From Clostridia bacterium (lineage in GTDB: Bacteria > Bacillota > Clostridia > Oscillospirales > Acutalibacteraceae), in the NCBI GenBank assembly GCA_017513245.1, contig JAFXGK010000014.1:25197-89196 (forward strand): a stretch of DNA of 64,000 nt, written 5' to 3'. The position numbers were made by a program, and so were the translations under genes. A model generated the notes under the pieces. That model saw only the letters and a program-made list of their open reading frames with translations, did no database searches and was not told the origin of the DNA. Position 1 is the stretch's first letter. Every line of letters starts with the position of its first letter. Below, piece after piece: positions 2,470 through 28,807 of this stretch.

Positions 2470-4914
2470 TTACATTTTCTCGGATATAAGCAGTGTTCCC
2501 GTGATGCCCGTAAGCTTATAAACCTTGCCGAAGGGCGAGTCAACAAGCTCATAGGTAAAGGGTGTCTGCGATACAAAATGCGGATAGTTAGAATTGAGTA
2601 AGAAGGTTGTTTTCTCAGGGGTCGAGAAGGGAATTACGTAAACCGTAGCGTCCACAAGTCCTTCAACCACCATTCTGCGCTTAATTTTGTATGCAGTTGC
2701 GATATGGTCTTTAGCGTGCATTACGGTTTTGGCACCGTTTTCAACGAACACACGGCATTCGTGGCGCCAAGCCCTCTGCAAATTATACTTTGCGTACTTG
2801 CCGTCAACAATGCATTCGTTAGCCAGCATCAGAGGTGCGCCGAGCGGAGTGCTGAGTGTTACGCCAACGGTGGTGTCGGCACAAAAACCGTTAAACCAAA
2901 CGGCGCCGTTAGAGCGATGCATAAGAATTACCGGTTCGGGAGAGTAGCGGTTAAACTTTTCAAATCGGAAGTCAAAGCCGGTATACGCTGCAGCCTTACG
3001 CATAAGCGTTTCGGCAGGGAAGGAGTCGTAGTGAACGGTGTCATCCTTCTTGGCGGCATCATCATCAGCCACCGGCTTGCGCGAGCAGTCGCAACCGCGG
3101 CACCAAATAGCCATACCGTCACCGGCGGGTGTGACGAGTGAGAGAATTCTGGTATCACCGTCTTTTTCGGCTGTAGCAAGCACGGTAGATTCGGTGTTGC
3201 CGTCTTTAAGGGTTGCAAAAAGTCCGCCATCGGTAAAGATACCGCCGTAATTTATGTTGGTGCAAATGGTATCCTCAAGCAGTTCTTTTTCGATACCGGT
3301 ATTATCGCATACCTCAAATTCACCGCAAAGTTCGGAGCTTTTTTCGAGCCCTAAAACGTCGATAATTCTCTTATCGGCGCCCAAAAGCGAGCCGTAGAAC
3401 ATAACCTTGCCGCCGTTTTTAATAAATTCGCAAAGCGCGTCACAAACCTCTGCGCCCTCGTGAGGCATCGGGGTTACTAAAATTCTGCCTGCGAAGGTTT
3501 CGGGCTTTGTTTTGGCTAATTTTCTGAAGTTATCGGTCGAAACAACACTGTTTACGGGCAGACCGTGGTTAAGCGCGGCAATAAAGTACCAATCTTCAAA
3601 GAAACTCTTTTCAAGACGTCCGCTTGCGATGCTGTTGTATTCCGAGAAGGGATAAACCCAAACAAACGGTGCCGCATCGTCGGGAGCGTTAACGTAGGAA
3701 CTGAGCATATAAGGAATAATCTCGTTGGGACAGCGGTCGGGCATATCGCCGTAACTGTCGTCAATGGATAAGAAGTTAATATGATTGGCAACTACGGTAT
3801 CGCCGTCTTTGTTGATTCGCGAGGTGGCGGTAGGCAGATAAATATCGTGGGGCTGACCTTCGTAGCGGTCAATCCAAGGGCTGTTTACCCACCAAATATC
3901 GTGAACGTAGAAACGGAAGAGGAAGTCCTCGTCCGGCAGCTCGGCCGCACGTGACATATATCCTGCAAGTTCAAGACCAAAGTTGCCGTCAAGCGCTGCC
4001 CAAGGCGAGTTGGGAGGCGGCAAAAGTTCGGGATTAAGATCGTATATTAAGCCGTGGTCAACGCCGTCGGAGGCGAAGTCAGCGCCAACTGTAAGGTTTG
4101 TGCCGCGTGTCTGAACAGGGTAGTGGCACTCTTTATAAAACAACTTCCAGAAGTCGGCTATCTTTTCACGGCAATCGTCAAGCTTCTCCTTGTAAAAAGC
4201 CTTGCCGTCAAACAAAGCGCCCGAAACGCCCCAGGTTTCGGTACCAAAGCCAAAGCCGTTCGAAAGCCAGATGAAATCAAATCCCATATCGGAAAGGAAG
4301 ATTTCCGATTGCTTGCCGAGGAAGGTGCCGAAGGGAGTACCGTCGGGAATACCGTTCGGATATGCGGCGTAAGCAACGTCGTCGCCGTTAAGCACACCGT
4401 AGCAGCAAACCATACTCTTTGCGCCCATCGAGCCGCCTTCGCAAATTTCGTTGTGACGATTGTATTTAAAGTCCGAAACCGCAAACTCGGGGCCGGGGTC
4501 AAAGGTGGTGCCGACGAAAACGGGCTTACCCGTAATGCGTGCGCCAACCTCCTTGATTATAGAAACAATATTCTTAAGATCGCGGTATGTATATTCGGGT
4601 GCGTTGTCCATATAAGGGTAGTTACGGGTGTGAAGGCCGAGTCCTTCAGGGTCGTTGGCACGGTCCCAGTTCATCTTAACGTTGGCTCCGCCCAGATAAT
4701 GCGCCCACTCGAAAACGTCGTCTAAGTTTCCACGGTAATCCAGCAGTTCGCTGCCGTCACCGGTCCACATCATAACGCCGACTTCTTCGGCCGCATCGAG
4801 TATATTCTTCCACTGTAAAAAGGCCTTTTCACAAACCTTTTCTATAACAGAAACGTCGGTGCTTTTAAAAGGCTTTAAGCTAACCTCCAGCGTAACGCGT
4901 TTTATGTTTTTCAT
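2470..4914 (-). CDS. uncharacterised 814-aa cytoplasmic protein, possibly glycoside hydrolase/phosphorylase-like
   Basis: Long ORF with a GGAGTGA RBS and no signal peptide. Composition is rich in aromatic and acidic residues (FDFIWLSNGFGFGTETWG, HDIWWVNSPW), as in sugar-active TIM barrels. The mid-region ILVTPMPHEG...NGGKVMFYGS resembles the flavodoxin-like module of GH42/GH112 enzymes. No family could be assigned by eye. Confidence 0.6.
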   Translation of the reverse strand: MKNIKRVTLEVSLKPFKSTDVSVIEKVCEKAFLQWKNILDAAEEVGVMMWTGDGSELLDYRGNLDDVFEWAHYLGGANVKMNWDRANDPEGLGLHTRNYPYMDNAPEYTYRDLKNIVSIIKEVGARITGKPVFVGTTFDPGPEFAVSDFKYNRHNEICEGGSMGAKSMVCCYGVLNGDDVAYAAYPNGIPDGTPFGTFLGKQSEIFLSDMGFDFIWLSNGFGFGTETWGVSGALFDGKAFYKEKLDDCREKIADFWKLFYKECHYPVQTRGTNLTVGADFASDGVDHGLIYDLNPELLPPPNSPWAALDGNFGLELAGYMSRAAELPDEDFLFRFYVHDIWWVNSPWIDRYEGQPHDIYLPTATSRINKDGDTVVANHINFLSIDDSYGDMPDRCPNEIIPYMLSSYVNAPDDAAPFVWVYPFSEYNSIASGRLEKSFFEDWYFIAALNHGLPVNSVVSTDNFRKLAKTKPETFAGRILVTPMPHEGAEVCDALCEFIKNGGKVMFYGSLLGADKRIIDVLGLEKSSELCGEFEVCDNTGIEKELLEDTICTNINYGGIFTDGGLFATLKDGNTESTVLATAEKDGDTRILSLVTPAGDGMAIWCRGCDCSRKPVADDDAAKKDDTVHYDSFPAETLMRKAAAYTGFDFRFEKFNRYSPEPVILMHRSNGAVWFNGFCADTTVGVTLSTPLGAPLMLANECIVDGKYAKYNLQRAWRHECRVFVENGAKTVMHAKDHIATAYKIKRRMVVEGLVDATVYVIPFSTPEKTTFLLNSNYPHFVSQTPFTYELVDSPFGKVYKLTGITGTLLISEKM

Positions 4915-13077: not shown

Positions 13078-13839
13078 TTGAAATATATTATAGTGTCAAA
13101 AAAACAGCTCATACTGGGTGCGCTTGCCATATTGGCAACCCTCACGGTAATAATCGGCTCGGTCCGCGTGTTTGCAAGCGGCGAGCGAATATTGCCTATT
13201 TACTGCGTCGAATGTGAGGAAAAGAAGGTCGCGATTTCCTTTGATGCCGCGTGGGGTAACGACGATACCGACGAGCTTATAAACATCTTAAAGGAGTACG
13301 ACGTACCGGCAACCTTTTTCGTTGTCGGCGCGTGGGTCGATAAATATCCCGAATCGGTAAAAGCGCTTCACGACGCGGGTCACAAGGTGCAAAATCATTC
13401 TAATACGCATCCTTATATGACCAAACTTTCCGAGCAGCAAATGCTGGCGGAACTCTCATCCTGCAACGAAAAAATTGCCGCAATAACGGGCGAAAAGCCG
13501 CTGCTTTTCAGACCGCCTTACGGCGACTATAATAACGCGGTTATAAAGGCGGTGGAAAGCGCCGAAATGTACACAATTCAGTGGGACGTAGACTCCCTCG
13601 ACTGGAAGGATACCGCCACACCCGAGAGCATTTGTAAACGCGTTACAAGCAAGGTCAAAAACGGCTCTATCGTGCTCTTCCATAACGATGCCGACCACAC
13701 TCCCGCAGCCCTGCCAAACATCCTAAAAACCCTTAAAGACCAAGGCTACGAGTTCGTATTTATCGAGGACTTAATCTATAAAGAAAATTACGAAATTAAA
13801 CACGACGGAACACAATGTAAAATCGAAAATGACAATTAA
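13078..13839 (+). CDS. polysaccharide deacetylase (NodB/CE4 domain) with an N-terminal membrane anchor
   Basis: FDAAWGNDDT, ATFFVVG and HSNTHP motifs. TTG start at 13078, 7 nt after AAAGGGGG; the in-frame GTG at 13057 is an alternative. Confidence 0.85.
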   Translation: MKYIIVSKKQLILGALAILATLTVIIGSVRVFASGERILPIYCVECEEKKVAISFDAAWGNDDTDELINILKEYDVPATFFVVGAWVDKYPESVKALHDAGHKVQNHSNTHPYMTKLSEQQMLAELSSCNEKIAAITGEKPLLFRPPYGDYNNAVIKAVESAEMYTIQWDVDSLDWKDTATPESICKRVTSKVKNGSIVLFHNDADHTPAALPNILKTLKDQGYEFVFIEDLIYKENYEIKHDGTQCKIENDN

Positions 13840-13844
13840 ACGTA

Positions 13845-13873
13845 GGGGAGAGCCTCTGCGCCCTCCCGTTTTT
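13845..13873 (+). terminator. intrinsic terminator after the deacetylase gene
   Basis: gggag...ctccc stem followed by GTTTTT. Confidence 0.5.
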
Positions 13874-13920
13874 AATTGATAAAATAATCGGGCGGGCATG
13901 GAAACCCGCCCCTACAACGA

Positions 13921-13950
13921 AAAAAGACGGCGATTTCGCCGTCTTTTTTG
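13921..13950. terminator. bidirectional intrinsic terminator at the left edge of the AT-rich island
   Basis: AAAAAgacggcg-attt-cgccgtcTTTTTT. Confidence 0.65.
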
Positions 13951-13974
13951 TTGCAACTATAAAAAGAGGTTGTT

Positions 13975-14346
13975 TTAATCAAAATCCCAATCCATTTCTT
14001 TGAGGCATGTTCCGTTTGGGGAAATAAAAAAAGAGGGGCTACTAACAGAGCCTTTGTAATTAGCGTAGTTGGTTTTTACGTTGCTGCGTTTAGCTTTTGT
14101 TTTGCGAATATAATAAGCACTGTTATTGTTTTTTGTTTTTGAAAAAGGGGGGATAGGCACATCAATGCCGAGGGTTGTTTTTAAATATCTTTTCGCTTCC
14201 GTGTCCGCAGGAAACAAGCCTTCGCCAAATATTGAAATGTTACGTTTGTATTTTTTCCCTTTGTAATAAACAACGATAAATGTGCTCGAACTATTGAAAT
14301 TTTCCACCCACACAATTTCTTGGTTTTTGCAATAAAACTTTTTCAT
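13975..14346 (-). CDS. hypothetical small basic protein (123 aa), no recognisable domain
   Basis: AGAGGTGA RBS 5-6 nt upstream of the ATG. AT-rich codon usage like the neighbouring island gene. Lys/Asn/Tyr-rich. Confidence 0.55.
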   Translation of the reverse strand: MKKFYCKNQEIVWVENFNSSSTFIVVYYKGKKYKRNISIFGEGLFPADTEAKRYLKTTLGIDVPIPPFSKTKNNNSAYYIRKTKAKRSNVKTNYANYKGSVSSPSFFISPNGTCLKEMDWDFD

Positions 14347-14467
14347 TTTATCACCTCTAAAATAAAAGTAAAATGGTGCGATTGTTTTTTTACAGGCTAT
14401 ACACTTTTATACAGTATATCACTATTATATGATTTCTGCAATTAAAGAGCAAAAACAGGTGATTTAA

Positions 14468-14496
14468 TTGACGCACTACGGTAGCGATGTTATAAT
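14468..14496 (+). promoter_or_regulatory. sigma-A type promoter for the HelD-like gene (TTGACG-17 nt-TATAAT)
   Basis: TTGACG at 14468-14473, a 17-nt spacer, and TATAAT at 14491-14496. Confidence 0.5.
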
Positions 14497-14536
14497 AATA
14501 TTGCGATGTTAAGGCAAGGTGAAGGGGTGAGTAAAA

Positions 14537-17227
14537 ATGTTATTTAAATATAATATTTTTGGATACGACAAAGAAGGCTATAATCGTAAAGGTTTTGATA
14601 AAAACGGCTTTGATCGCAGTGGTTATGATAAAGACGGCTATAACAAGGACGGGTATGACGCTAACGGATACGACAGATTAGGCTACGATTTACGGGGCTA
14701 TGATAAAAGCGGGTATGATAAACAGGGCTTTGACAGCACTGGATACAATGCGAACGGTTTTGATAGAAAAGGCTTTGATCATAGCGGTTTTGATAAAGAC
14801 GGCTATGACAAAGATGGGTATGACGCCAACGGATACGACAGGTTAGGTTATGATTTGCAAGGCTATAATATTGATGGATACGATATAAAAGGCTTTGATA
14901 AACTGGGTTTTGACCATAGCGGCTTTGATAAAAACGGCTTTAATCGTAGCGGCTTTGATAAAGACGGCTATGACAAAGATGGGTATGACGCCAACGGATA
15001 CGACAGATTAGGTTATGATTTGCAAGGCTATAATATTGATGGATACGATATAAAAGGCTTTGATAAATTAGGTTTTGACCATAGCGGCTTTGATAGAAAC
15101 GGCTATGACAAAAAAGGATATGATGCTGACGGATATGACCAGTTAGGCTATGATTTGAATGGCTATGATAGAAGCGGGTATGACCGCAATGGCAAAAGAT
15201 TTGTTCATGATGACAAAATAATCGAGCTTACAAAAAAGACGTATAAAAAAAGAAACAAGGAAAATTTAAAAGAGTTAGGTGATTCGTTTGATGGCGGGTT
15301 ATATGGTGTGGAAAATTATGAGTTGGCCCGCTATATTTATGAAATTGCAAAAGGGAAAAATGTTCGAGTAAGTGAACAATATTATTATGCTCCTACCCAA
15401 GCTGCTTTTCAAAAAAACGATAATTCGTTTGGTGAGATTTTCAACCAAGAAAAGAGCACTCTAAAAAGGGTAAAAACGGCTATTGAAAATGACATTTCCA
15501 AAACAACTGAAGGAATAGAAGAGGTTGAAAAAGAAACCTGGTGGATGGATTATGACCAAAAGAACGAATGGCGTGTAACAGCGGGCAGAAATCGCAAAAA
15601 AGAAGATAAGATTTTCTTTTTGCAAAAAATCAAAAAGCGCCCATATTATGCCAGAATGGACACCAAAACAGAAGGAGAAATCAGCACTGCTTATATAGGG
15701 GAAGAGCATTACGATAGCGAAGATGGAACTTGCTGTATTGCCTCTGTATGGTCGGAAATCGGTAGGCGTTATAGAGAAAAACGCAATTCATCGTTTCAAT
15801 TCGATGGCAAGGTGCATGAAATACAATTAAGACGAAACCTTGAAATCCAAAATGGTGAACTGATTGACGTTTATGATGAGTATAATGTTGGTTCTGAAGC
15901 TGCAACAAACAATATAACCGACCTGTATTTGTTAAAAGTTCTTGAGGAGAAGAAGGGCGAAAAGAATATAACCAACATTATTCGTTCGATACAGTTAAAT
16001 CAAAATGCCATAATCGAATATGATTTTCAAAAGAATTTGTTGGTTCAGGGCTGTGCCGGCAGTGGTAAAACAATGATATTATTGCATAGGCTTGCTAATA
16101 TGAAGTTTAATTACCCGGATGTGGATTATACAAGAGTGAAAATCATCACCCCAAACAAAAATTTTAATTTGTTTATCGATGAATTATCTAAAAATCTTCA
16201 TATAGAGCAAATACCTAAAATGACGATTGGCGAGTATTGGATTGATGTTGTATCAAGATATAGGGTTGCGCATACTAAAGATAAATCGCCCATGCCTTAT
16301 AGTTTGGAAGATTTATTAACTGATGACTTTTCAAAGGAAGTTAGAGAAATCATTTATTCAAAAGAATTCGCCAACGTACTAAAAACATCAATAGAAAAAA
16401 TACCCAAAGGTCTTGACTATACACAAGATGGTACGAAAAAAAAGGAAGACGGCAGCACTGAAAAAAAGGAAGGTAGTATAAGAAAAATTGATAATGCTAT
16501 TGAGGAGGCACTATGTAGTTTTGGTTTGAGAGATATTAAGGTTGCGGATAGAAAAGAAAACAACAAAACTAATCATATGGATCTCACAGATTCAATACTT
16601 TATGCAAAAGTTTTGGCGCTATTCTTGTATTACGGACCGTTAAGTAATATTTACCAAGATACGTATTTGTGCGTTGATGAAGGACAAGATATTTCTTTGT
16701 TGCAATACGGGTTAATGTTAAGAATTAATCGCAATAATGTTAAGTTTAATATATATGGCGATATATATCAACAAATACCAAGTGGTTGCAATATTGAAGA
16801 TTGGGATTATTTATTAAAGTATATTCAGGCAGAAAAGTTTGTTCTAAATGAGAATTATAGAAATAGCGAAGAAATTATACAGTTCTATAACCAAAAACTT
16901 TCTATGTCTAATTTATCCTTCGGTTTAAAAACTAAAGAGGTTGAAAAAATATCCCACAAAACATTGATTTGGAAAGTTTTACTCAATTTAATACTTGGCA
17001 ATCGGACCGCTATAATATGTAATGATTACAACCTTATTCCAAATGACATCAAAGAATTCTGTTCATTTAATGATTTGTCAGCAACGAATAAAGCCAATGT
17101 GTTAACGGTAAAACAAGCAAAAGGCCTCGAATATGATACAGTGTTTGTTTTTGATAAGGATATGAACAAAAACGAAAGCTACATTTCATATACCAGAGCT
17201 TTAAGTGAACTGTATATTGTTGAATGA
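14537..17227 (+). CDS. UvrD/HelD-like superfamily-1 ATPase with an N-terminal G-[YF]-[DN]-x-x pentapeptide repeat array
   Basis: SF1 motifs are present: GCAGSGKT (Walker A), CVDEGQDIS (motif II), NYRNSEEI, and TVKQAKGLEYDTVFV...YISYTRALSELYI. A HelD-like pre-helicase segment is RPYYARMD...AYIGEEH...ASVWSEIGRRY. Residues 9-218 are pentapeptide repeats. Confidence 0.85.
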   Translation: MLFKYNIFGYDKEGYNRKGFDKNGFDRSGYDKDGYNKDGYDANGYDRLGYDLRGYDKSGYDKQGFDSTGYNANGFDRKGFDHSGFDKDGYDKDGYDANGYDRLGYDLQGYNIDGYDIKGFDKLGFDHSGFDKNGFNRSGFDKDGYDKDGYDANGYDRLGYDLQGYNIDGYDIKGFDKLGFDHSGFDRNGYDKKGYDADGYDQLGYDLNGYDRSGYDRNGKRFVHDDKIIELTKKTYKKRNKENLKELGDSFDGGLYGVENYELARYIYEIAKGKNVRVSEQYYYAPTQAAFQKNDNSFGEIFNQEKSTLKRVKTAIENDISKTTEGIEEVEKETWWMDYDQKNEWRVTAGRNRKKEDKIFFLQKIKKRPYYARMDTKTEGEISTAYIGEEHYDSEDGTCCIASVWSEIGRRYREKRNSSFQFDGKVHEIQLRRNLEIQNGELIDVYDEYNVGSEAATNNITDLYLLKVLEEKKGEKNITNIIRSIQLNQNAIIEYDFQKNLLVQGCAGSGKTMILLHRLANMKFNYPDVDYTRVKIITPNKNFNLFIDELSKNLHIEQIPKMTIGEYWIDVVSRYRVAHTKDKSPMPYSLEDLLTDDFSKEVREIIYSKEFANVLKTSIEKIPKGLDYTQDGTKKKEDGSTEKKEGSIRKIDNAIEEALCSFGLRDIKVADRKENNKTNHMDLTDSILYAKVLALFLYYGPLSNIYQDTYLCVDEGQDISLLQYGLMLRINRNNVKFNIYGDIYQQIPSGCNIEDWDYLLKYIQAEKFVLNENYRNSEEIIQFYNQKLSMSNLSFGLKTKEVEKISHKTLIWKVLLNLILGNRTAIICNDYNLIPNDIKEFCSFNDLSATNKANVLTVKQAKGLEYDTVFVFDKDMNKNESYISYTRALSELYIVE
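14561..15190 (+). repeat. coding tandem repeat with a 15-bp period (42 units) and a 165-bp higher-order period
   Basis: 42 consecutive G-[YF]-[DN]-x-x units. The 11-unit blocks at 14786-14950 and 14951-15115 are nearly identical in DNA, and an older copy lies at 14621-14785. Confidence 0.95.
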
Positions 17228-17303
17228 AAAAGCGTTGCTTTTGATTTCTAATTGTCTTGTGTTGCGATGCGTTTAAGTCGAAAAAATCAAGCAATTTGCA
17301 AAC

Positions 17304-17335
17304 AAAAAGACGGTGCTCGGTAGCACCGTCTTTTC
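17304..17335. terminator. bidirectional intrinsic terminator at the right edge of the AT-rich island
   Basis: AAAAAgacggtgc-tcggta-gcaccgtcTTTTC, between the convergent HelD-like and lipoprotein genes. Confidence 0.65.
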
Positions 17336-17337
17336 TA

Positions 17338-18120
17338 TTAATAAGCCTTAAAGCCTAAATCTGCAAGTGTTAACTTTACGCCCTCGTTTTTGAAGCACGA
17401 ATCAGTCAAAGATAAAAGCGTGTGGAAGAGGTTGTCCAGCTCGGCATCCTTACAAACCTTGGTGGTCTTGGTGAGCTTGGCAATATCAAACTTGCCGCTT
17501 TCGCTTTTGGTGGCATACTCGATTTTGTAGGTAGCCTTTGTAATGTTTATTTCGTAACTAAACTTGTTACCGTTATCGAAACCACTCTTTCTAAGAACAA
17601 AGTTGTTGTAATAATCGAGAATTATATAAACGTCGTGGGGCGCCATAAGATATTCGGAACTCATGGCGGCGCCGTCCGAGCCCTTGGACTTAATTACGTT
17701 GCTCAGATAGTCAAAAACCTTTTCGGGGTTAATGCGGTCACACTTGGTGCAGAAATCACCCGAAAAATTGTGGGCAAAATCTATTTCCTCGGTGTAGGTA
17801 TCGCCGCAGGCGCAGGTGTAGGTTACCGAGCCCTTTTTGGTGCAGGTAGCGGCAACAGTTTTGGTCTTATAGTCGTGGGTGTGCTCGTTCTTGCCGTCAC
17901 CCTTATCGGTCGAAGGCTTGCTCGATTCTTCTTCCTTGCTGCTTACAGGCTTATCGTCCTTGTCATCCTTATCGTTGGCCGGCTCGCTCGAAGAGGGCGC
18001 GTCGGTGTTTTCCGTTTCGGATGAAGTGTCGTCAATGCGGATAACGGTGGTCTCACTGCCGCAAGCGCAGAGTGAGAATATAAGTAACAGTGCTAATAAA
18101 AGTGCAGAAAGCTTTTTCAT
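17338..18120 (-). CDS. lipoprotein with an acidic low-complexity linker and a Cys-rich module
   Basis: MKKLSALLLALLLIFSLCACGS lipobox. AAGGAGA RBS before the ATG at 18120. CTKKGSVTYTCACGDTY...FCTKCDR cysteine cluster. The longer ORF extending to 18462 has no RBS. Confidence 0.75.
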   Translation of the reverse strand: MKKLSALLLALLLIFSLCACGSETTVIRIDDTSSETENTDAPSSSEPANDKDDKDDKPVSSKEEESSKPSTDKGDGKNEHTHDYKTKTVAATCTKKGSVTYTCACGDTYTEEIDFAHNFSGDFCTKCDRINPEKVFDYLSNVIKSKGSDGAAMSSEYLMAPHDVYIILDYYNNFVLRKSGFDNGNKFSYEINITKATYKIEYATKSESGKFDIAKLTKTTKVCKDAELDNLFHTLLSLTDSCFKNEGVKLTLADLGFKAY

Positions 18121-27166: not shown

Positions 27167-28807
27167 ATGAAGAAAAGTTTTCTTTCAATCGCATTAAAAT
27201 GGGCGATAACGTTGCTTGTTATCGGCGGATATTACTATTTCGTTCTGCCGCCCATCAATTTCCAGAGTAAGGATTTTTGGTTTTTTGTCGGATTCGCAAT
27301 AGTCGTAGGTGTTGGTATAAACGCCTTTGCGCAGATTTTAGAGTTCATTAAGGACAATAAAAACGCCACCGAAAAATCCAAAATACCGCATTTTGATTTC
27401 GGCTCGTTTAACAAACCCGTAAAGATAGCCTTGATTGCAGTTGTAGCAATTATCGCTTTAAGTGCAGTTGCTTCAATTGTCGGTTCACAGCTTTTTAATG
27501 CAAAGTCCTATAGGGATCTTATAATCTTTGAAGACGGCAATTTCATCGAGGAGGTTGCCGAAATCAGTCAGGACCAAATTCCCGTGGTTGACCGTGATAC
27601 CGCTTCGCGTTTAGGTCAGCGTAAACTGGGCGAAATGGCCGATTTGGTTTCGCAGTTCGAAATCGAAGAAATTTATACACAGATTAACTATAAAGGCAAG
27701 CCCGTAAGGGTTACTCCTTTAATGTACGGCGATATCATTAAGTGGATTAACAATCGCTCAGAAGGTATTCCCGCATATATCACCGTAGATATGACCACGC
27801 AGGAAACCGAACTTGTGCGTCTTGAAAAGGGCATAAAATACTCCGAAAGCGAGTACTTTATGCGTGACCTTAACCGTGCGCTCCGCTTTAAATATCCTAC
27901 CAAGATTTTTGATAATATCTCCTTCGAAATCGACGATGAGGGCACACCTTATTGGGTAGCGTCCGTAATTGATTTTAAAATCGGTTTTTGGAGCGGAAGC
28001 GATATTGACGGCGTAGTTATTATGAACGCGCAGACCGGTGAAAGCAAGTATTATAAGCTTGAGGACGTGCCTTCGTGGATCGATCAGGTGTTTGACTCAG
28101 ATATGATCGAACAACACCTTGTATATAACGGTAAATACCGTTCCGGATTCTTCAACTCCATTTTTGGTCAGCGAGGTGTGTTACAGCCCACCGACGGTTA
28201 TAATTATTTAGCGCTCGACGATGATGTATACTTGTATACCGGAATGACCTCGGTTACCAGTGATGAATCCAACGTTGGCTTCGTGCTTGTAAACCTTCGC
28301 ACCAAGGAAACCAAGTTCTATACCATTCCGGGCGCAGAGGAATATTCAGCCATGAGCTCTGCAGAGGGTCAGGTACAGCATCTTTCATATTCCTCAACCT
28401 TCCCGCTGCTTTTAAACGTTTCGGATAGGCCAACCTATTTTATGTCGCTTAAGGACAGTGCCGGTCTTGTAAAAATGTATGCGTTTGTCGATGTTAATCA
28501 GTATCAGATAGTAGGTACCGGCAACACGGTCGAAAGCGCTCGTGCTGATTATATTTCCAAGCTTAAAAAGGAAAACGTTTCCGACGCTCCCGAAACCGAA
28601 GATCAGGAGGTAGAGGGCGTTATAGCGGGCATTAGCTCTGCAGTCGTTGAAGGAAACACTACCTATTATATAAAACTGGAAAACGACGCTAACGTATATA
28701 CCGTGCTGGTTACCAAGTCCGATTTACTGCCCTTCGCAAAATCGGGCGATAGAGTAAAGATTACCGTTTCGGGCAAGACCGTAAACACGATTCAGTTTGT
28801 TGAATAA
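27167..28807 (+). CDS. membrane-anchored protein of unknown function (two N-terminal TM helices plus a large extracytoplasmic domain)
   Basis: AGGAG RBS. Hydrophobic segments at residues ~10-30 and ~38-58, with a third near residue 85. No catalytic motif recognised. Confidence 0.7.
   Translation: MKKSFLSIALKWAITLLVIGGYYYFVLPPINFQSKDFWFFVGFAIVVGVGINAFAQILEFIKDNKNATEKSKIPHFDFGSFNKPVKIALIAVVAIIALSAVASIVGSQLFNAKSYRDLIIFEDGNFIEEVAEISQDQIPVVDRDTASRLGQRKLGEMADLVSQFEIEEIYTQINYKGKPVRVTPLMYGDIIKWINNRSEGIPAYITVDMTTQETELVRLEKGIKYSESEYFMRDLNRALRFKYPTKIFDNISFEIDDEGTPYWVASVIDFKIGFWSGSDIDGVVIMNAQTGESKYYKLEDVPSWIDQVFDSDMIEQHLVYNGKYRSGFFNSIFGQRGVLQPTDGYNYLALDDDVYLYTGMTSVTSDESNVGFVLVNLRTKETKFYTIPGAEEYSAMSSAEGQVQHLSYSSTFPLLLNVSDRPTYFMSLKDSAGLVKMYAFVDVNQYQIVGTGNTVESARADYISKLKKENVSDAPETEDQEVEGVIAGISSAVVEGNTTYYIKLENDANVYTVLVTKSDLLPFAKSGDRVKITVSGKTVNTIQFVE

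What the first reader, a model, noticed from the sequence alone, without database searches (positions are those of the whole stretch)
14561..15190. Forty-two tandem G-[YF]-[DN]-x-x pentapeptides fused to a HelD/UvrD-like SF1 ATPase
Seen in the sequence: residues 9-218 form an uninterrupted array of 42 five-residue units (GYDKD, GYDAN, GYDRL, GFDHS and so on). Gly, an aromatic residue and Asp/Asn are invariant, and positions 4-5 are variable.

The array is followed by a HelD-like pre-helicase segment (RPYYARMD..AYIGEEH..SVWSEIGRRY) and a complete set of SF1 motifs.

Established knowledge: this is neither the classical A(D/N)LXX pentapeptide-repeat family nor the ~20-aa Rhs YD repeat. HelD-type proteins insert N-terminal domains into RNA polymerase channels.

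Inference: the array could form a regular solenoid or an extended acidic-aromatic, nucleic-acid-mimicking module that replaces the usual HelD N-terminal domain. I do not recognise this architecture as described.
Basis: partly seen in the sequence, partly recalled or inferred. Interest (0 to 1): 0.75.

Follow-up and report, generated by a model that had tools for sequence, protein, structure and literature searches.

The report
Pentapeptide repeat array on HelD-like ATPase
A horizontally acquired gene encodes a relative of the RNA-polymerase-recycling ATPase HelD that carries 42 perfect five-residue repeats (Gly-Tyr/Phe-Asp/Asn-x-x) at its front end; this repeat type occurs in thousands of proteins, yet has no family model in Pfam or NCBIfam, no similar solved structure and no known function.

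Summary
ORF 14537-17227 (+, 896 aa) has 42 uninterrupted G-[YF]-[DN]-x-x units at residues 9-218 (nt 14561-15190).

The rest of the protein is HelD-like. B. subtilis and M. smegmatis HelD are the best sequence and fold matches, and all SF1 ATPase motifs are present.

The antiparallel coiled-coil arm with a conserved acidic tip and the conserved Trp are retained at residues 295-405. The array and a short helical adaptor are added in front.

The protein is not a canonical HelD. The "absolutely conserved" DWR motif reads SVWSE, and the NCBIfam HelD model scores 85 bits against a cut-off of 419.

The array belongs to a very large repeat class (consensus G-Ar-[DN]-[RK]-[DEN]; more than 4,000 cluster representatives) fused to unrelated domains. 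It has no Pfam or NCBIfam model, no similar solved structure and no paper in the library searched.

Copy number ranges from 2-3 degenerate units to 82 among relatives. An otherwise identical allele has 31 units instead of 42.

The gene lies in a low-GC islet, and distant array-bearing relatives sit in mobile elements or defence-like islands.

The function of the array is unresolved. My best guess is a length-tolerant projecting scaffold outside the RNA polymerase secondary channel.

The parts
13800..17400 (.). Low-GC islet holding orf123 and the HelD-like gene
   Evidence: GC is 0.30-0.39 here against 0.46-0.52 on both sides. The flanks are core genes: polysaccharide deacetylase, RNase J, L9 and DnaB. 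No tRNA gene or att-like repeats lie at the edges.
13975..14346 (-). Divergent 123-aa ORF of unknown function inside the islet
   Evidence: Found. It has no Pfam or PADLOC hit. It was found next to the helicase only in the same-strain contig L081, so it is not a conserved partner.
14468..14496 (+). Sigma-70-like promoter: TTGACG, 17-nt spacer, TATAAT, with an extended -10 TG
   Evidence: It matches 11 of 12 consensus positions, the best match in the region. This is a consensus match only, not shown to be active.
14521..14529 (+). Shine-Dalgarno-like GAAGGGGTG, 7 nt before the ATG
   Evidence: Read directly from the sequence.
14537..17227 (+). Whole coding sequence, 896 aa plus stop codon: repeat array fused to a HelD-like SF1 ATPase
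14537..14560 (+). N-terminal leader MLFKYNIF
   Evidence: Conserved as M[LI]FKYNIF in relatives P0003, P0006 and P0013. pLDDT is below 50.
14561..15190 (+). 42 tandem G-[YF]-[DN]-x-x pentapeptides (residues 9-218)
   Evidence: Parsed. AlphaFold2 gives pLDDT 70-88 in the full-length model and 93 for the array alone. No Pfam or NCBIfam family passes its threshold.
14755..15084 (+). Two adjacent 165-nt (11-unit) copies, 95% identical; one copy's worth is missing in the otherwise identical allele L081
15191..15418 (+). Helical adaptor (residues 219-294), with Sel1-like sequence in relatives
   Evidence: Helices at 225-237, 241-253, 261-271 and 278-282. Relatives carry PF08238 Sel1 hits. The 286-aa distance from array end to Walker A is conserved.
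15419..15637 (+). Antiparallel coiled-coil arm (residues 295-367), equivalent to the HelD secondary-channel arm; acidic tip at 326-340 (nt 15512-15556)
   Evidence: Helices at 295-325 and 339-367. The tip reads GIEEVEKETWWMDYD, with conserved E329, [DE]331, [ED]333, D338 and D340. B. subtilis HelD has acidic tip residues D56/D57 (PMC7749167).
15638..15916 (+). Beta domain with the conserved Trp (SVWSE, residues 403-407, nt 15743-15757) in place of HelD's DWR motif
   Evidence: Aligned to HelD YDWRAP. W405 is invariant in alignment A1.
16028..16225 (+). First half of SF1 domain 1A, with Walker A GCAGSGKT (residues 505-512, nt 16049-16072)
16226..16654 (+). Insertion of about 140 aa splitting domain 1A, at the position of HelD's 247-aa clamp arm
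   Evidence: Placed by arithmetic from the alignment and the HelD domain limits given in PMC7749167.
16655..17224 (+). Second half of 1A and an unsplit 2A domain: DEGQD 714-718, GDIYQQ 741-746, NYRNS 773-777, motif V 858-871, motif VI 882-895
   Evidence: Only 85 aa separate motifs IV and V, which leaves no room for a 2B domain.

Best explanation
The ORF encodes an accessory, horizontally acquired, HelD-like SF1 ATPase with an extra N-terminal repeat module.

Shown:
- Residues from about 271 to 896 have the HelD body plan. This comprises an antiparallel coiled-coil arm with a conserved acidic tip, a beta domain with an invariant Trp, domain 1A split by an insertion, an unsplit 2A and all ATPase motifs.
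- Residues 9-218 are 42 perfect G-[YF]-[DN]-x-x units placed in front of that arm, not instead of it.
- The array belongs to a very large repeat class (consensus G-Ar-[DN]-[RK]-[DEN]) with no model in the Pfam or NCBIfam copies searched. The class is fused to many unrelated domains.
- Copy number changes quickly in blocks, here by 11 units (165 nt).

Inferred:
- Like HelD, the core docks its coiled coil in the RNA polymerase secondary channel and uses ATP to remodel or release the enzyme.
- The N-terminus of that arm lies at the channel mouth, so the array must project outside the polymerase.
- The array most likely forms a regular, turn-per-pentad rod or spiral. It would act as a length-tolerant projecting scaffold for multivalent weak contacts (aromatic plus alternating charges), used to capture a partner or to position the protein.
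- It is unlikely to be an element that enters a polymerase channel.

Confidence is high for the anatomy and about one in three for this specific role of the array.
For: HelD-like core:
- NCBIfam HelD_BACSU is the best family hit (E=2e-24, residues 351-622).
- PDB 6wvk_H B. subtilis HelD gives E=4e-17.
- The AlphaFold2 model has mean pLDDT 81. Its seven best Foldseek matches are all HelD chains (E 1e-24 to 4e-18), ahead of UvrD/PcrA/Rep (about 1e-11).
- The coiled coil, the acidic tip and the invariant Trp are present.

The array is an add-on:
- Relatives without repeats have Walker A at 277, against 505 here.
- The distance from array end to Walker A is a constant 286 aa in the clade.

Independent link to RNA polymerase:
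- In sister clades a CarD/TRCF-RID or PcrA/UvrD-Tudor-like barrel sits between array and core.
- 8 of 14 members hit CarD_TRCF_RID (best 28.5 bits, cut-off 23) and 5 of 14 hit PcrA_UvrD_tudor. UvrD/PcrA C-terminal domains in the PDB match at E about 0.01.

Repeat class:
- 4,122 cluster representatives at E<=1e-3 and 262 at E<=1e-30.
- Partner domains include RNase_T, FHA, AAA_11/12, HNH, VWA, HECT, Sigma70_r4/FecR, WXG100 and zinc ribbons.
- It is also found in animals.

Length tolerance:
- 72 of 116 helicase relatives carry 5-82 units.
- Relatives P0008 and P0009 (about 69% identical) keep only 2-3 degenerate units.
- L081 differs from the window only by one 165-nt block.

Structure: pLDDT is 93 for the array alone, with i,i+6 bridges from the aromatic residue of unit n to the D/N of unit n+1.

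Accessory status:
- The gene lies in a low-GC islet.
- Relatives lie next to integrases, relaxases, VapE and defence-like genes.
Against: - The DWR Trp-cage motif, described as absolutely conserved in all HelD proteins (PMC8655204), reads SVWSE here. It is SVWS[ED] or xDWAD in all 116 relatives.
- The NCBIfam HelD score is far below the cut-off (85.5 against 419).
- The insertion at the clamp-arm position is about 140 aa instead of 247.
- The coiled-coil helices are about 30 residues each, shorter than in B. subtilis HelD. Docking in the polymerase is therefore not assured.
- Nothing here tests binding to RNA polymerase.
- The array's fold rests on AlphaFold2 alone. DSSP finds no helix or sheet, pTM is 0.59, and Foldseek finds no PDB match at all. 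AlphaFold2 can be over-confident on perfect repeats (my own knowledge).
- A free N-terminal array with no distal domain is an odd design for a spacer.
- No partner for the array was identified.
Confidence: 0.55

Rival explanations
1. The array is a nucleic-acid mimic. A regular acidic-aromatic rod would occupy a DNA- or RNA-binding surface of RNA polymerase or of another nucleic-acid enzyme, as the pentapeptide-repeat proteins MfpA and Qnr do for gyrase.
For: - It has a five-residue period with a conserved D/N and an aromatic residue.
- The array is acidic (46 D+E against 30 K+R, net -16, pI 4.5).
- Several partner domains of the repeat class act on nucleic acids (RNase_T, HNH_2, AAA_11/12 helicases, Sigma70_r4).
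- HelD itself uses acidic tips to repel nucleic acids (PMC7749167).
Against: - Charge density is low (mean -0.37 per unit family-wide), and Lys/Arg hold position 4 in 61% of units.
- No Pfam pentapeptide family matches at E<=1.
- The motif order (G-Ar-D/N) differs from A-(D/N)-L-x-x, and there is no small hydrophobic residue two positions before the aromatic one.
- The same repeat occurs in membrane proteins and in animal kielin/chordin-like and FERM proteins.
- With the coiled coil in the secondary channel, the N-terminal array starts outside the enzyme (inference from PMC7749167).
Confidence: 0.12
2. The array is an intrinsically disordered or elastic low-complexity region, such as a linker, an entropic spring or a condensate-forming sticker-and-spacer tract. 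On this view the AlphaFold2 confidence is an artefact of perfect repeats.
For: - DSSP assigns almost no secondary structure.
- pTM is only 0.59, and nothing similar exists in the PDB.
- The composition is rich in G, Y/F, D, N and K. By my own knowledge, this resembles elastomeric pentapeptide repeats and prion-like domains.
- The very wide tolerance of copy number (2-82 units) fits a linker.
Against: - There is not a single indel in 42 units here, nor in runs of up to 77 units elsewhere.
- Three of five positions are held across bacteria and animals.
- pLDDT is 93 with the same local i,i+6 closure in two independent runs.
- The array is terminal, so it links nothing.
Confidence: 0.2
3. The array is a divalent-cation-binding (Ca2+ or Mg2+) repeat, loosely like RTX beta-rolls, whose folding or stiffness depends on metal.
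For: - Gly and Asp/Asn are invariant at fixed spacing (G-x-D), and D/E/N is frequent at position 5.
- The repeat occurs in extracellular proteins of shell-forming animals.
Against: - Asn replaces Asp in 38% of units family-wide. This suits turn-capping better than metal ligation.
- The spacing fits neither EF-hand DxDxDG nor RTX GGxGxD.
- The helicase has no signal peptide, so it is cytoplasmic, where free Ca2+ is low.
Confidence: 0.06
4. The tract, or at least its length, is an assembly artefact.
For: - An otherwise 100% identical short-read contig (L081, k141) has 31 units, lacking exactly one 165-nt block.
- The two blocks are 95% identical.
- The orthologue contig L001 breaks inside the array.
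Against: - Arrays of 5-82 units precede the same core in 72 independent database proteins.
- They occur in genomes whose record titles name cultured strains: F. prausnitzii APC923/61-1 with 49 units and Anaeroplasma bactoclasticum ATCC 27112 with 31.
- The reading frame, the leader and the junction to the adaptor are conserved.

The existence of the array is therefore safe. Only the count (42 or 31) is open.
Confidence: 0.03
5. The protein serves a conflict between the host and mobile elements or phages, rather than housekeeping recycling of RNA polymerase. It might guard the polymerase against phage or antibiotic inhibitors, or be a tool of a mobile element. The variable N-terminal module would be the sensing or targeting part. 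This concerns the biological role and is compatible with the best explanation.
For: - The gene lies in a low-GC islet.
- Relatives lie in an integrase/relaxase element and beside HIRAN, PLD nuclease, Eco57I and Schlafen-AlbA genes.
- Others lie beside DEAD/MZB, NERD helicase, ADP-ribosylglycohydrolase, PARG and Macro genes, next to an integrase, or near VapE or FRG genes.
- The same core carries swappable N-terminal modules: array, Tudor, Sel1, LRR_5, dynamin-like GTPase and zinc ribbons.
- B. subtilis HelD protects the polymerase from rifampicin (PMC12802891).
Against: - PADLOC gives only generic UvrD-type GajB matches, with no partner gene.
- No conserved neighbour was found.
- No relative was found in the viral contigs by pattern scan, and only weak generic hits appear in phage and plasmid records.
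- One close relative lies among ordinary chromosomal genes.
Confidence: 0.3

Closest known systems
HelD (YvgS) of Bacillus subtilis, class I RNA polymerase recycling ATPase (PDB 6WVK; NCBIfam NF041464)
   Same: - It is the best sequence and fold match.
- Both have an N-terminal antiparallel coiled coil with an acidic tip, a conserved Trp between the arm and domain 1A, a 1A domain split by a non-1B insertion, an unsplit 2A and a full set of ATPase motifs.
- Both are accessory genes with signs of horizontal transfer (for this gene; PMC8655204 for HelD).
   Different: - The DWR motif is replaced by SVWSE.
- The score is 85 bits against a cut-off of 419.
- The insertion at the clamp-arm position is about 140 aa rather than 247.
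- The coiled coil is shorter.
- About 270 extra N-terminal residues (array plus helical adaptor) are absent from all HelD classes described in PMC8655204.
HelD/HelR of Actinobacteria (class II; PDB 6YXU; NF041465, NF041254)
   Same: SF1 core and the region before Walker A are similar (E about 1e-13; Foldseek E about 4e-20).
   Different: - It is a weaker match than class I.
- In class II the arm in the primary channel carries the acidic tip (PMC7749167).
- It has no repeat array.
DotG/IcmE central decapeptide repeats of Legionella (Pfam PF25296 'Decapeptide'; also PF13599 Pentapeptide_4)
   Same: - Both have a G-[FY] pair recurring in phase. The array profile hits DotG 555-727 at E=9e-26, and the query array hits PF25296 at 21 bits.
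- Copy number is highly variable in both (PMC6761968).
- The DotG repeat region is also structurally unresolved (10.1101/2025.06.23.660953).
   Different: - The DotG unit is ten residues (AGFSAKELKD), with Leu in place of every second G-aromatic pair.
- A synthetic DotG repeat scores 190.9 bits on PF25296, whereas (GYDKD)x20 and (GYDRDGFNKE)x10 score nothing.
- The resemblance is periodicity, not membership.
Classical pentapeptide-repeat proteins (A(D/N)LXX; MfpA, Qnr, AlbG; Pfam PF00805)
   Same: Both have a five-residue period with a conserved D/N and a hydrophobic or aromatic residue. Members of this family protect nucleic-acid enzymes by mimicking DNA (my own knowledge).
   Different: - No Pfam hit at E<=1.
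- The residue order differs (G-Ar-D/N rather than D/N-L/F-x-G).
- There is no small inward-facing residue two positions before the aromatic one.
- The model shows no four-sided beta-helix ladder.
PcrA/UvrD with a C-terminal Tudor domain; CarD/Mfd RID
   Same: Both have an SF1 core. Sister clades of this family carry a Tudor/RID-like barrel of the kind that binds the RNA polymerase beta subunit.
   Different: - The query itself has no such barrel.
- In the sister clades the barrel is N-terminal rather than C-terminal.
- The core lacks the 1B and 2B domains.

Membership tests
HelD (RNA polymerase recycling motor; classes I-III) | SF1 ATPase motifs (Walker A Lys, DExQ, motifs III-VI) | tested here: met
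   GCAGSGKT 505-512, DEGQD 714-718, GDIYQQ 741-746, NYRNS 773-777, motif V 858-871 and motif VI 882-895. Pfam UvrD-helicase and AAA_19 both pass their thresholds.
HelD (RNA polymerase recycling motor; classes I-III) | HelD-specific N-terminal antiparallel coiled coil (secondary-channel arm) with an acidic tip | tested here: met
   AlphaFold2 places helices at 295-325 and 339-367. The tip carries conserved E329, [DE]331, [ED]333, D338 and D340. This is a prediction, not a solved structure, and the helices are shorter than in B. subtilis HelD.
HelD (RNA polymerase recycling motor; classes I-III) | DWR (Asp-Trp-Arg) Trp-cage motif, 'absolutely conserved' in all HelD sequences (PMC8655204) | tested here: not met
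   It aligns to SVWSE 403-407, so only the Trp is kept. All 116 relatives have SVWS[ED], xDWAD or other variants, and none has DWR.
HelD (RNA polymerase recycling motor; classes I-III) | Domain 1A split by a clamp arm instead of a 1B domain; 2A not split by 2B | tested here: inconclusive
   An insertion of about 140 aa (564-706) lies at the right place but is 100 aa shorter than the 247-aa clamp arm (PMC7749167). 2A is unsplit, with 85 aa between motifs IV and V. Foldseek aligns 779 columns to 6wvk_H, but the TM-score is only 0.43-0.49.
HelD (RNA polymerase recycling motor; classes I-III) | Curated family score (NCBIfam NF041464 HelD_BACSU, cut-off 419 bits) | tested here: not met
   85.5 bits, E=2e-24, covering only residues 351-622.
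HelD (RNA polymerase recycling motor; classes I-III) | Binds RNA polymerase and releases it from nucleic acids in an ATP-dependent way | not testable with these tools
   This needs pull-down, transcription-recycling assays or cryo-EM.
Pfam PF25296 Decapeptide repeat region (DotG/IcmE type) | Score at or above the gathering threshold (45 bits) on a ten-residue AGFSAKELKD-type unit | tested here: not met
   21.3 bits for residues 1-228. Synthetic controls: (AGFSAKELKD)x10 scores 190.9 bits, while (GYDKD)x20 gives no hit.
Classical pentapeptide repeats (PF00805, PF13599, PF13576; A(D/N)LXX) | Match to the family models; consensus [STAV][DN][LF][STR][G] | tested here: not met
   No hit at E<=1 for the whole protein or for residues 1-228. 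The motif order is G-[YF]-[DN]-x-x.
Rhs / YD repeats | A repeat of about 20 residues with the YD core motif; Pfam or TIGRFAM match | tested here: not met
   No Pfam or NCBIfam hit. The period is strictly 5 residues.
Gabija GajB (UvrD-like defence helicase) | GajB-type helicase encoded next to a GajA OLD-family nuclease | tested here: not met
   PADLOC GajB models match only generic helicase segments (best E=2e-14, residues 676-786). The neighbouring ORFs have no PADLOC or Pfam hit.

The most novel reading that the evidence does not exclude
The G-Ar-[DN]-[RK]-[DEN] pentad array is a new autonomous protein fold: a turn-per-pentad rod with no solved relative. It would equip a previously unrecognised DWR-less clade of HelD-like ATPases, spread by mobile elements, with a new activity at RNA polymerase. 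That activity could be a docking platform comparable in logic to the eukaryotic polymerase CTD, or a decoy against phage- or antibiotic-derived polymerase inhibitors. The same module would then play a general, still unknown role in thousands of other bacterial and animal proteins.
Probability: 0.15. Interest if true: 0.85.

Novelty: new variant of a known kind. Interest (0 to 1): 0.62.

Why it matters
HelD proteins recycle stalled RNA polymerase and protect it from rifamycins. Their N-terminal arm is the working part.

This work points to a whole clade of gut-Clostridia relatives that lacks the supposedly universal DWR motif and carries exchangeable N-terminal modules. The commonest module among the relatives retrieved is a long pentapeptide array. 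This widens the known design space of factors that bind RNA polymerase.

Separately, the array defines a repeat class found in more than 4,000 protein clusters across bacteria and some animals. It has no model in the Pfam or NCBIfam copies searched, no similar solved structure and no paper in the library searched. AlphaFold2 nevertheless predicts it with very high confidence. Solving one short array would characterise a large family at once.

The class is directly testable, because genomes whose record titles name cultured strains (Faecalibacterium prausnitzii APC923/61-1, Anaeroplasma bactoclasticum ATCC 27112) carry such genes.

Tried and rejected
1. Membership of Pfam PF25296. Sub-threshold hits and precomputed hits in relatives suggested the array was already catalogued. 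Synthetic controls show the model describes the DotG AGFSAKELKD decapeptide. Rejected.

2. Rifampicin-responsive convergent promoters, as at B. subtilis helD (PMC12802891). The only antisense candidate (14523 to 14495) matches 9 of 12 positions, which is chance level, and overlaps the sense -10 box instead of lying 45-100 bp away. Rejected.

3. A conserved partner gene. orf123 and the downstream ORFs are not found next to relatives, apart from the same-strain contig. Rejected.

4. Phage or plasmid origin. The pattern scan of the viral contigs found no relative. tblastn against phage and plasmid records found only weak generic HelD/UvrD matches, plus array matches in Gordonia plasmids. No support.

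5. An integration site. No tRNA gene and no att-like repeats flank the low-GC islet.

6. Three units per coil. Lag statistics over 5,552 units show small peaks at lags 3 and 6. Higher-order duplications confound them, and the higher-order blocks are 11 or 4 units long, not multiples of 3. The DSSP bridges all pair i with i+6. Not used as evidence for a solenoid.

7. Fold search of the array model. There were 0 PDB hits and nothing meaningful in BFVD. This is uninformative about function, and the absence of hits may partly reflect how Foldseek handles repetitive structures.

8. Literature searches for the motif strings, for PF25296 and for HelD in Faecalibacterium or Lachnospiraceae found nothing relevant.

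9. One large alignment of 69 array proteins failed in the tool. A 40-protein set was used instead.

Full report
**Observation.** The window holds one ORF at 14537..17227 on the + strand, 896 aa. Cutting residues 9-218 into fives gives 42 consecutive units with no indel. Gly is present in 42/42, Tyr in 28 and Phe in 14, Asp in 36 and Asn in 6, and the last two positions vary. Unit 43 (GKRFV) ends the pattern. The nucleotide span is 14561-15190, as reported.

From the window's own amino-acid frequencies, the chance of this run is about 1e-147. No other frame of the window holds such an array. The invariant residues use all synonymous codons, so the protein, not just the DNA, is constrained.

At the DNA level there is a higher-order period of 165 nt, or 11 units. 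Two adjacent copies, 14755-14919 and 14920-15084, are 95% identical.

**The core is HelD-like.**
- Pfam finds only generic SF1 domains in residues 488-895.
- The best NCBIfam family is HelD_BACSU (E=2e-24, residues 351-622), followed by HelR and mycobacterial HelD, and only then UvrD.
- Against PDB sequences, B. subtilis HelD is first (E=4e-17), with query 352-574 aligned to HelD 82-303.
- An AlphaFold2 model built on 43 relatives has mean pLDDT 81.
- Its seven best Foldseek matches in the PDB are all HelD chains (1e-24 to 4e-18). UvrD, PcrA and Rep follow at about 1e-11.
- All ATPase motifs are intact.

**The array is added, not substituted.** The model shows a long helical hairpin, 295-325 and 339-367. 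Its tip (GIEEVEKETWWMDYD) carries acidic residues conserved across the family. In B. subtilis HelD the equivalent arm (aa 1-203, acidic tip D56/D57) enters the secondary channel (PMC7749167). The absolutely conserved W137 of HelD corresponds to the invariant W405 here.

Relatives without repeats have Walker A at residue 277, against 505 here. In the query's clade the distance from the end of the array to Walker A is a constant 286 aa. The array plus a short helical adaptor (219-294) is therefore an N-terminal extension.

**It is not a canonical HelD.**
- The DWR motif, called absolutely conserved in all HelD sequences (PMC8655204), reads SVWSE here.
- Among 116 helicase-bearing relatives the motif is SVWS[ED] (the query's clade), xDWAD (a sister clade) or another variant, and never DWR.
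- The NCBIfam score is 85.5 bits against a cut-off of 419.
- The insertion at the clamp-arm position is about 140 aa instead of 247, and the coiled coil is shorter.

I therefore file it as HelD-like, possibly an undescribed class, and not as a member of classes I-III.

**A link to RNA polymerase in sister clades.** Different modules lie between the array and the coiled coil in different relatives.
- The query's clade has Sel1-like helices.
- Some clades have nothing (a gap of 216 aa).
- Several clades have a small barrel with the G-x-x-V-x-H-x-x-x-G-x-G signature.
- Of 14 such segments, 8 hit CarD_TRCF_RID (best 28.5 bits, cut-off 23) and 5 hit PcrA_UvrD_tudor. UvrD/PcrA C-terminal domains in the PDB match at E about 0.01.

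By my own knowledge, these domains bind the polymerase beta subunit. This supports polymerase as the family's target, although the query lacks the barrel.

**The repeat class.** Family-wide (5,552 units from 182 arrays) the consensus is G, Y56/F38, D57/N38, R34/K27, D25/E22/N15 (percentages). Mean net charge is -0.37 per unit. The query array has net charge -16 and pI 4.5.

A search with the array alone against 1.84 billion cluster representatives finds 4,122 proteins at E<=1e-3, 1,453 at E<=1e-10 and 262 at E<=1e-30. Only 6 of the 137 new top hits carry the helicase Walker A. In the rest the array lies at the N-terminus, middle or C-terminus of proteins of 315-7,692 aa.

Partner domains in a sample of 40 include RNase_T, FHA, AAA_11/12, HNH_2, VWA, HECT, Sigma70_r4, FecR, WXG100 and zinc ribbons. 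Named members include Elusimicrobiota proteins, kielin/chordin-like proteins of Lingula and Argonauta, and a snail FERM protein. Gordonia plasmids also carry it.

**Is the repeat catalogued?** The only family hits are sub-threshold: PF25296 'Decapeptide' (21 bits, cut-off 45) and the DotG/IcmE model. The array profile hits the DotG repeat region at E=9e-26, but only through the periodic G-[FY] pair.

Synthetic controls settle the question. (AGFSAKELKD)x10 scores 190.9 bits on PF25296, while (GYDKD)x20 and (GYDRDGFNKE)x10 score nothing. PF25296 therefore models the DotG decapeptide, and the pentad array has no Pfam or NCBIfam model.

Classical pentapeptide and Rhs YD families do not match either. 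No paper in the library searched contains the motif strings.

**Predicted structure.** The array has pLDDT 70-88 in the full-length model and 93 when modelled alone (pTM 0.59). DSSP assigns no helix and no sheet.

Every bridge residue in both models pairs i with i+6. The pair is the aromatic residue of one unit and the Asp/Asn of the next. This indicates a repeated local turn closure, not an inter-coil ladder.

Foldseek finds no PDB match even at E<=10, and nothing useful among viral models. The DotG repeats, the nearest sequence analogue, are unresolved in all structures (10.1101/2025.06.23.660953). A regular solenoid is therefore not shown. The choice is between a new turn-rich rod or spiral and an over-confident prediction on a perfect repeat.

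**Copy-number dynamics.** Contig L081 comes from the same species and has the same gene order. It is 100% identical over the gene and the 2.5 kb upstream, except for a clean 165-nt deletion, giving 31 units.

Relatives with at least 64% identity in the core range from 2-3 degenerate units (P0008, P0009) to 55 units. In all, 72 of 116 relatives carry 5-82 units, with a median of 54.

Arrays are present in genomes whose record titles name cultured strains: F. prausnitzii APC923/61-1 with 49 units and A. bactoclasticum ATCC 27112 with 31. The tract is real. Only its exact length in this genome could be affected by assembly.

**Genomic context.** The gene and a divergent 123-aa ORF lie in a 3.6-kb islet of 30-39% GC within a 46-52% GC chromosome. 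The islet sits between a polysaccharide deacetylase gene and RNase J, L9 and DnaB. It has no tRNA gene, integrase or flanking repeats. A strong sigma-70-like promoter and a Shine-Dalgarno sequence precede the ATG.

More distant array-bearing relatives lie in several accessory settings:
- an integrase/relaxase element;
- beside HIRAN, PLD nuclease, Eco57I and Schlafen-AlbA genes;
- beside DEAD/MZB, NERD helicase, ADP-ribosylglycohydrolase, PARG and Macro genes;
- next to an integrase;
- near VapE or FRG genes.

One close relative lies among ordinary genes. No neighbour is conserved. PADLOC gives only generic GajB-type matches. This is an accessory, mobile gene family, and a role in conflict is plausible but unproven.

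**Mechanism.**
- *Shown:* the HelD-like body plan, the retained arm, the add-on array, the promiscuity of the repeat class, block-wise length change and accessory status.
- *Inferred:* the core docks in the secondary channel and uses ATP to remodel the polymerase, as HelD does.
- *Inferred:* because the arm's N-terminus is at the channel mouth (PMC7749167), the array projects outside the enzyme.

The array tolerates 2-82 units, is often terminal, and has a fixed aromatic residue plus alternating acid, base and acid positions. I therefore favour a length-tolerant projecting scaffold for multivalent weak contacts.

The rivals are a nucleic-acid mimic (modest net charge, basic position 4, non-nucleic-acid contexts), a disordered or elastic tract (strict register and conservation argue against it), metal binding (Asn in 38% of units argues against it) and an assembly artefact (excluded for existence).

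**Verdict.** This is a new variant of a known kind: a DWR-less HelD-like ATPase carrying a repeat module that is widespread yet has no family model, solved structure or published description that I could find. Interest is moderately high. The function of the array is the open question, and it can be tested in strains whose genome records name cultured isolates.

Noticed in passing
window 13800-17400: A low-GC islet (0.30-0.39 against 0.46-0.52) holds the HelD-like gene and a divergent 123-aa ORF with no family hit. No tRNA gene, integrase or att-like repeats lie at its edges.
   Followed up: yes
window 14386-14429: An imperfect 19-nt tandem repeat (TTTTATACAGGATATACAC, 2.4 copies) lies in the divergent intergenic region, just upstream of the strong promoter at 14468-14496. 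It could be an operator.
   Followed up: no
L034-L038, L049, L055, L062, L069, L074 (Lachnospiraceae loci, including records titled Lachnospira multipara, Pseudobutyrivibrio sp. and Blautia sp.): Relatives of the same HelD-like core carry a different N-terminal extension of about 400 aa, with four repeated CxxC...CxxC zinc-ribbon-like units and an acidic linker, instead of the pentad array.
   Followed up: partly
P0037, P0093, P0096, P0098: The same core is also fused to a dynamin-like GTPase (P0037, 1551 aa) or to LRR_5 leucine-rich repeats (about 1295 aa). The N-terminal module of this clade is exchangeable.
   Followed up: no
P0043/L008, P0031, P0107, P0075, L015 and others (alignment A4): A CarD/TRCF-RID or PcrA/UvrD-Tudor-like barrel lies between the array and the coiled coil in several sister clades.
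   Followed up: yes
Pfam PF25296: The 'Decapeptide repeat region' model is a DotG-type AGFSAKELKD model. It cross-matches G-F-rich pentad arrays at sub-threshold or marginal scores, so precomputed PF25296 labels on such proteins can mislead.
   Followed up: yes
L081 6001-8526 against window 14537-17227: A same-species contig is 100% identical except for one 165-nt (11-unit) in-frame deletion in the array. This is either a strain polymorphism or a short-read assembly collapse.
   Followed up: partly
L001 1-2600: The 77%-identical orthologue runs off its contig inside the array. It is followed by a fragment 91% identical to residues 178-255 of the window's polysaccharide deacetylase, so the gene order differs there.
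   Followed up: no
P0024, P0113: Membrane proteins carry 68-91 pentad units followed by a shared C-terminal domain with a GGQCGEY motif. By transmembrane-segment count the array is probably cytoplasmic.
   Followed up: no
P0120, P0175, P0212: The same pentad repeat occurs in lophotrochozoan animal proteins: a snail FERM-domain protein and Lingula and Argonauta kielin/chordin-like proteins. Shared ancestry and convergence were not distinguished.
   Followed up: no
window 2470-4914 (-) and 27167-28807 (+): Two large ORFs (813 and 546 aa) have no Pfam hit at E<=1e-5.
   Followed up: no
window 13920-13949: A perfect 14-nt inverted repeat followed by a T run lies between the deacetylase gene and orf123. 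It is probably a bidirectional terminator.
   Followed up: no
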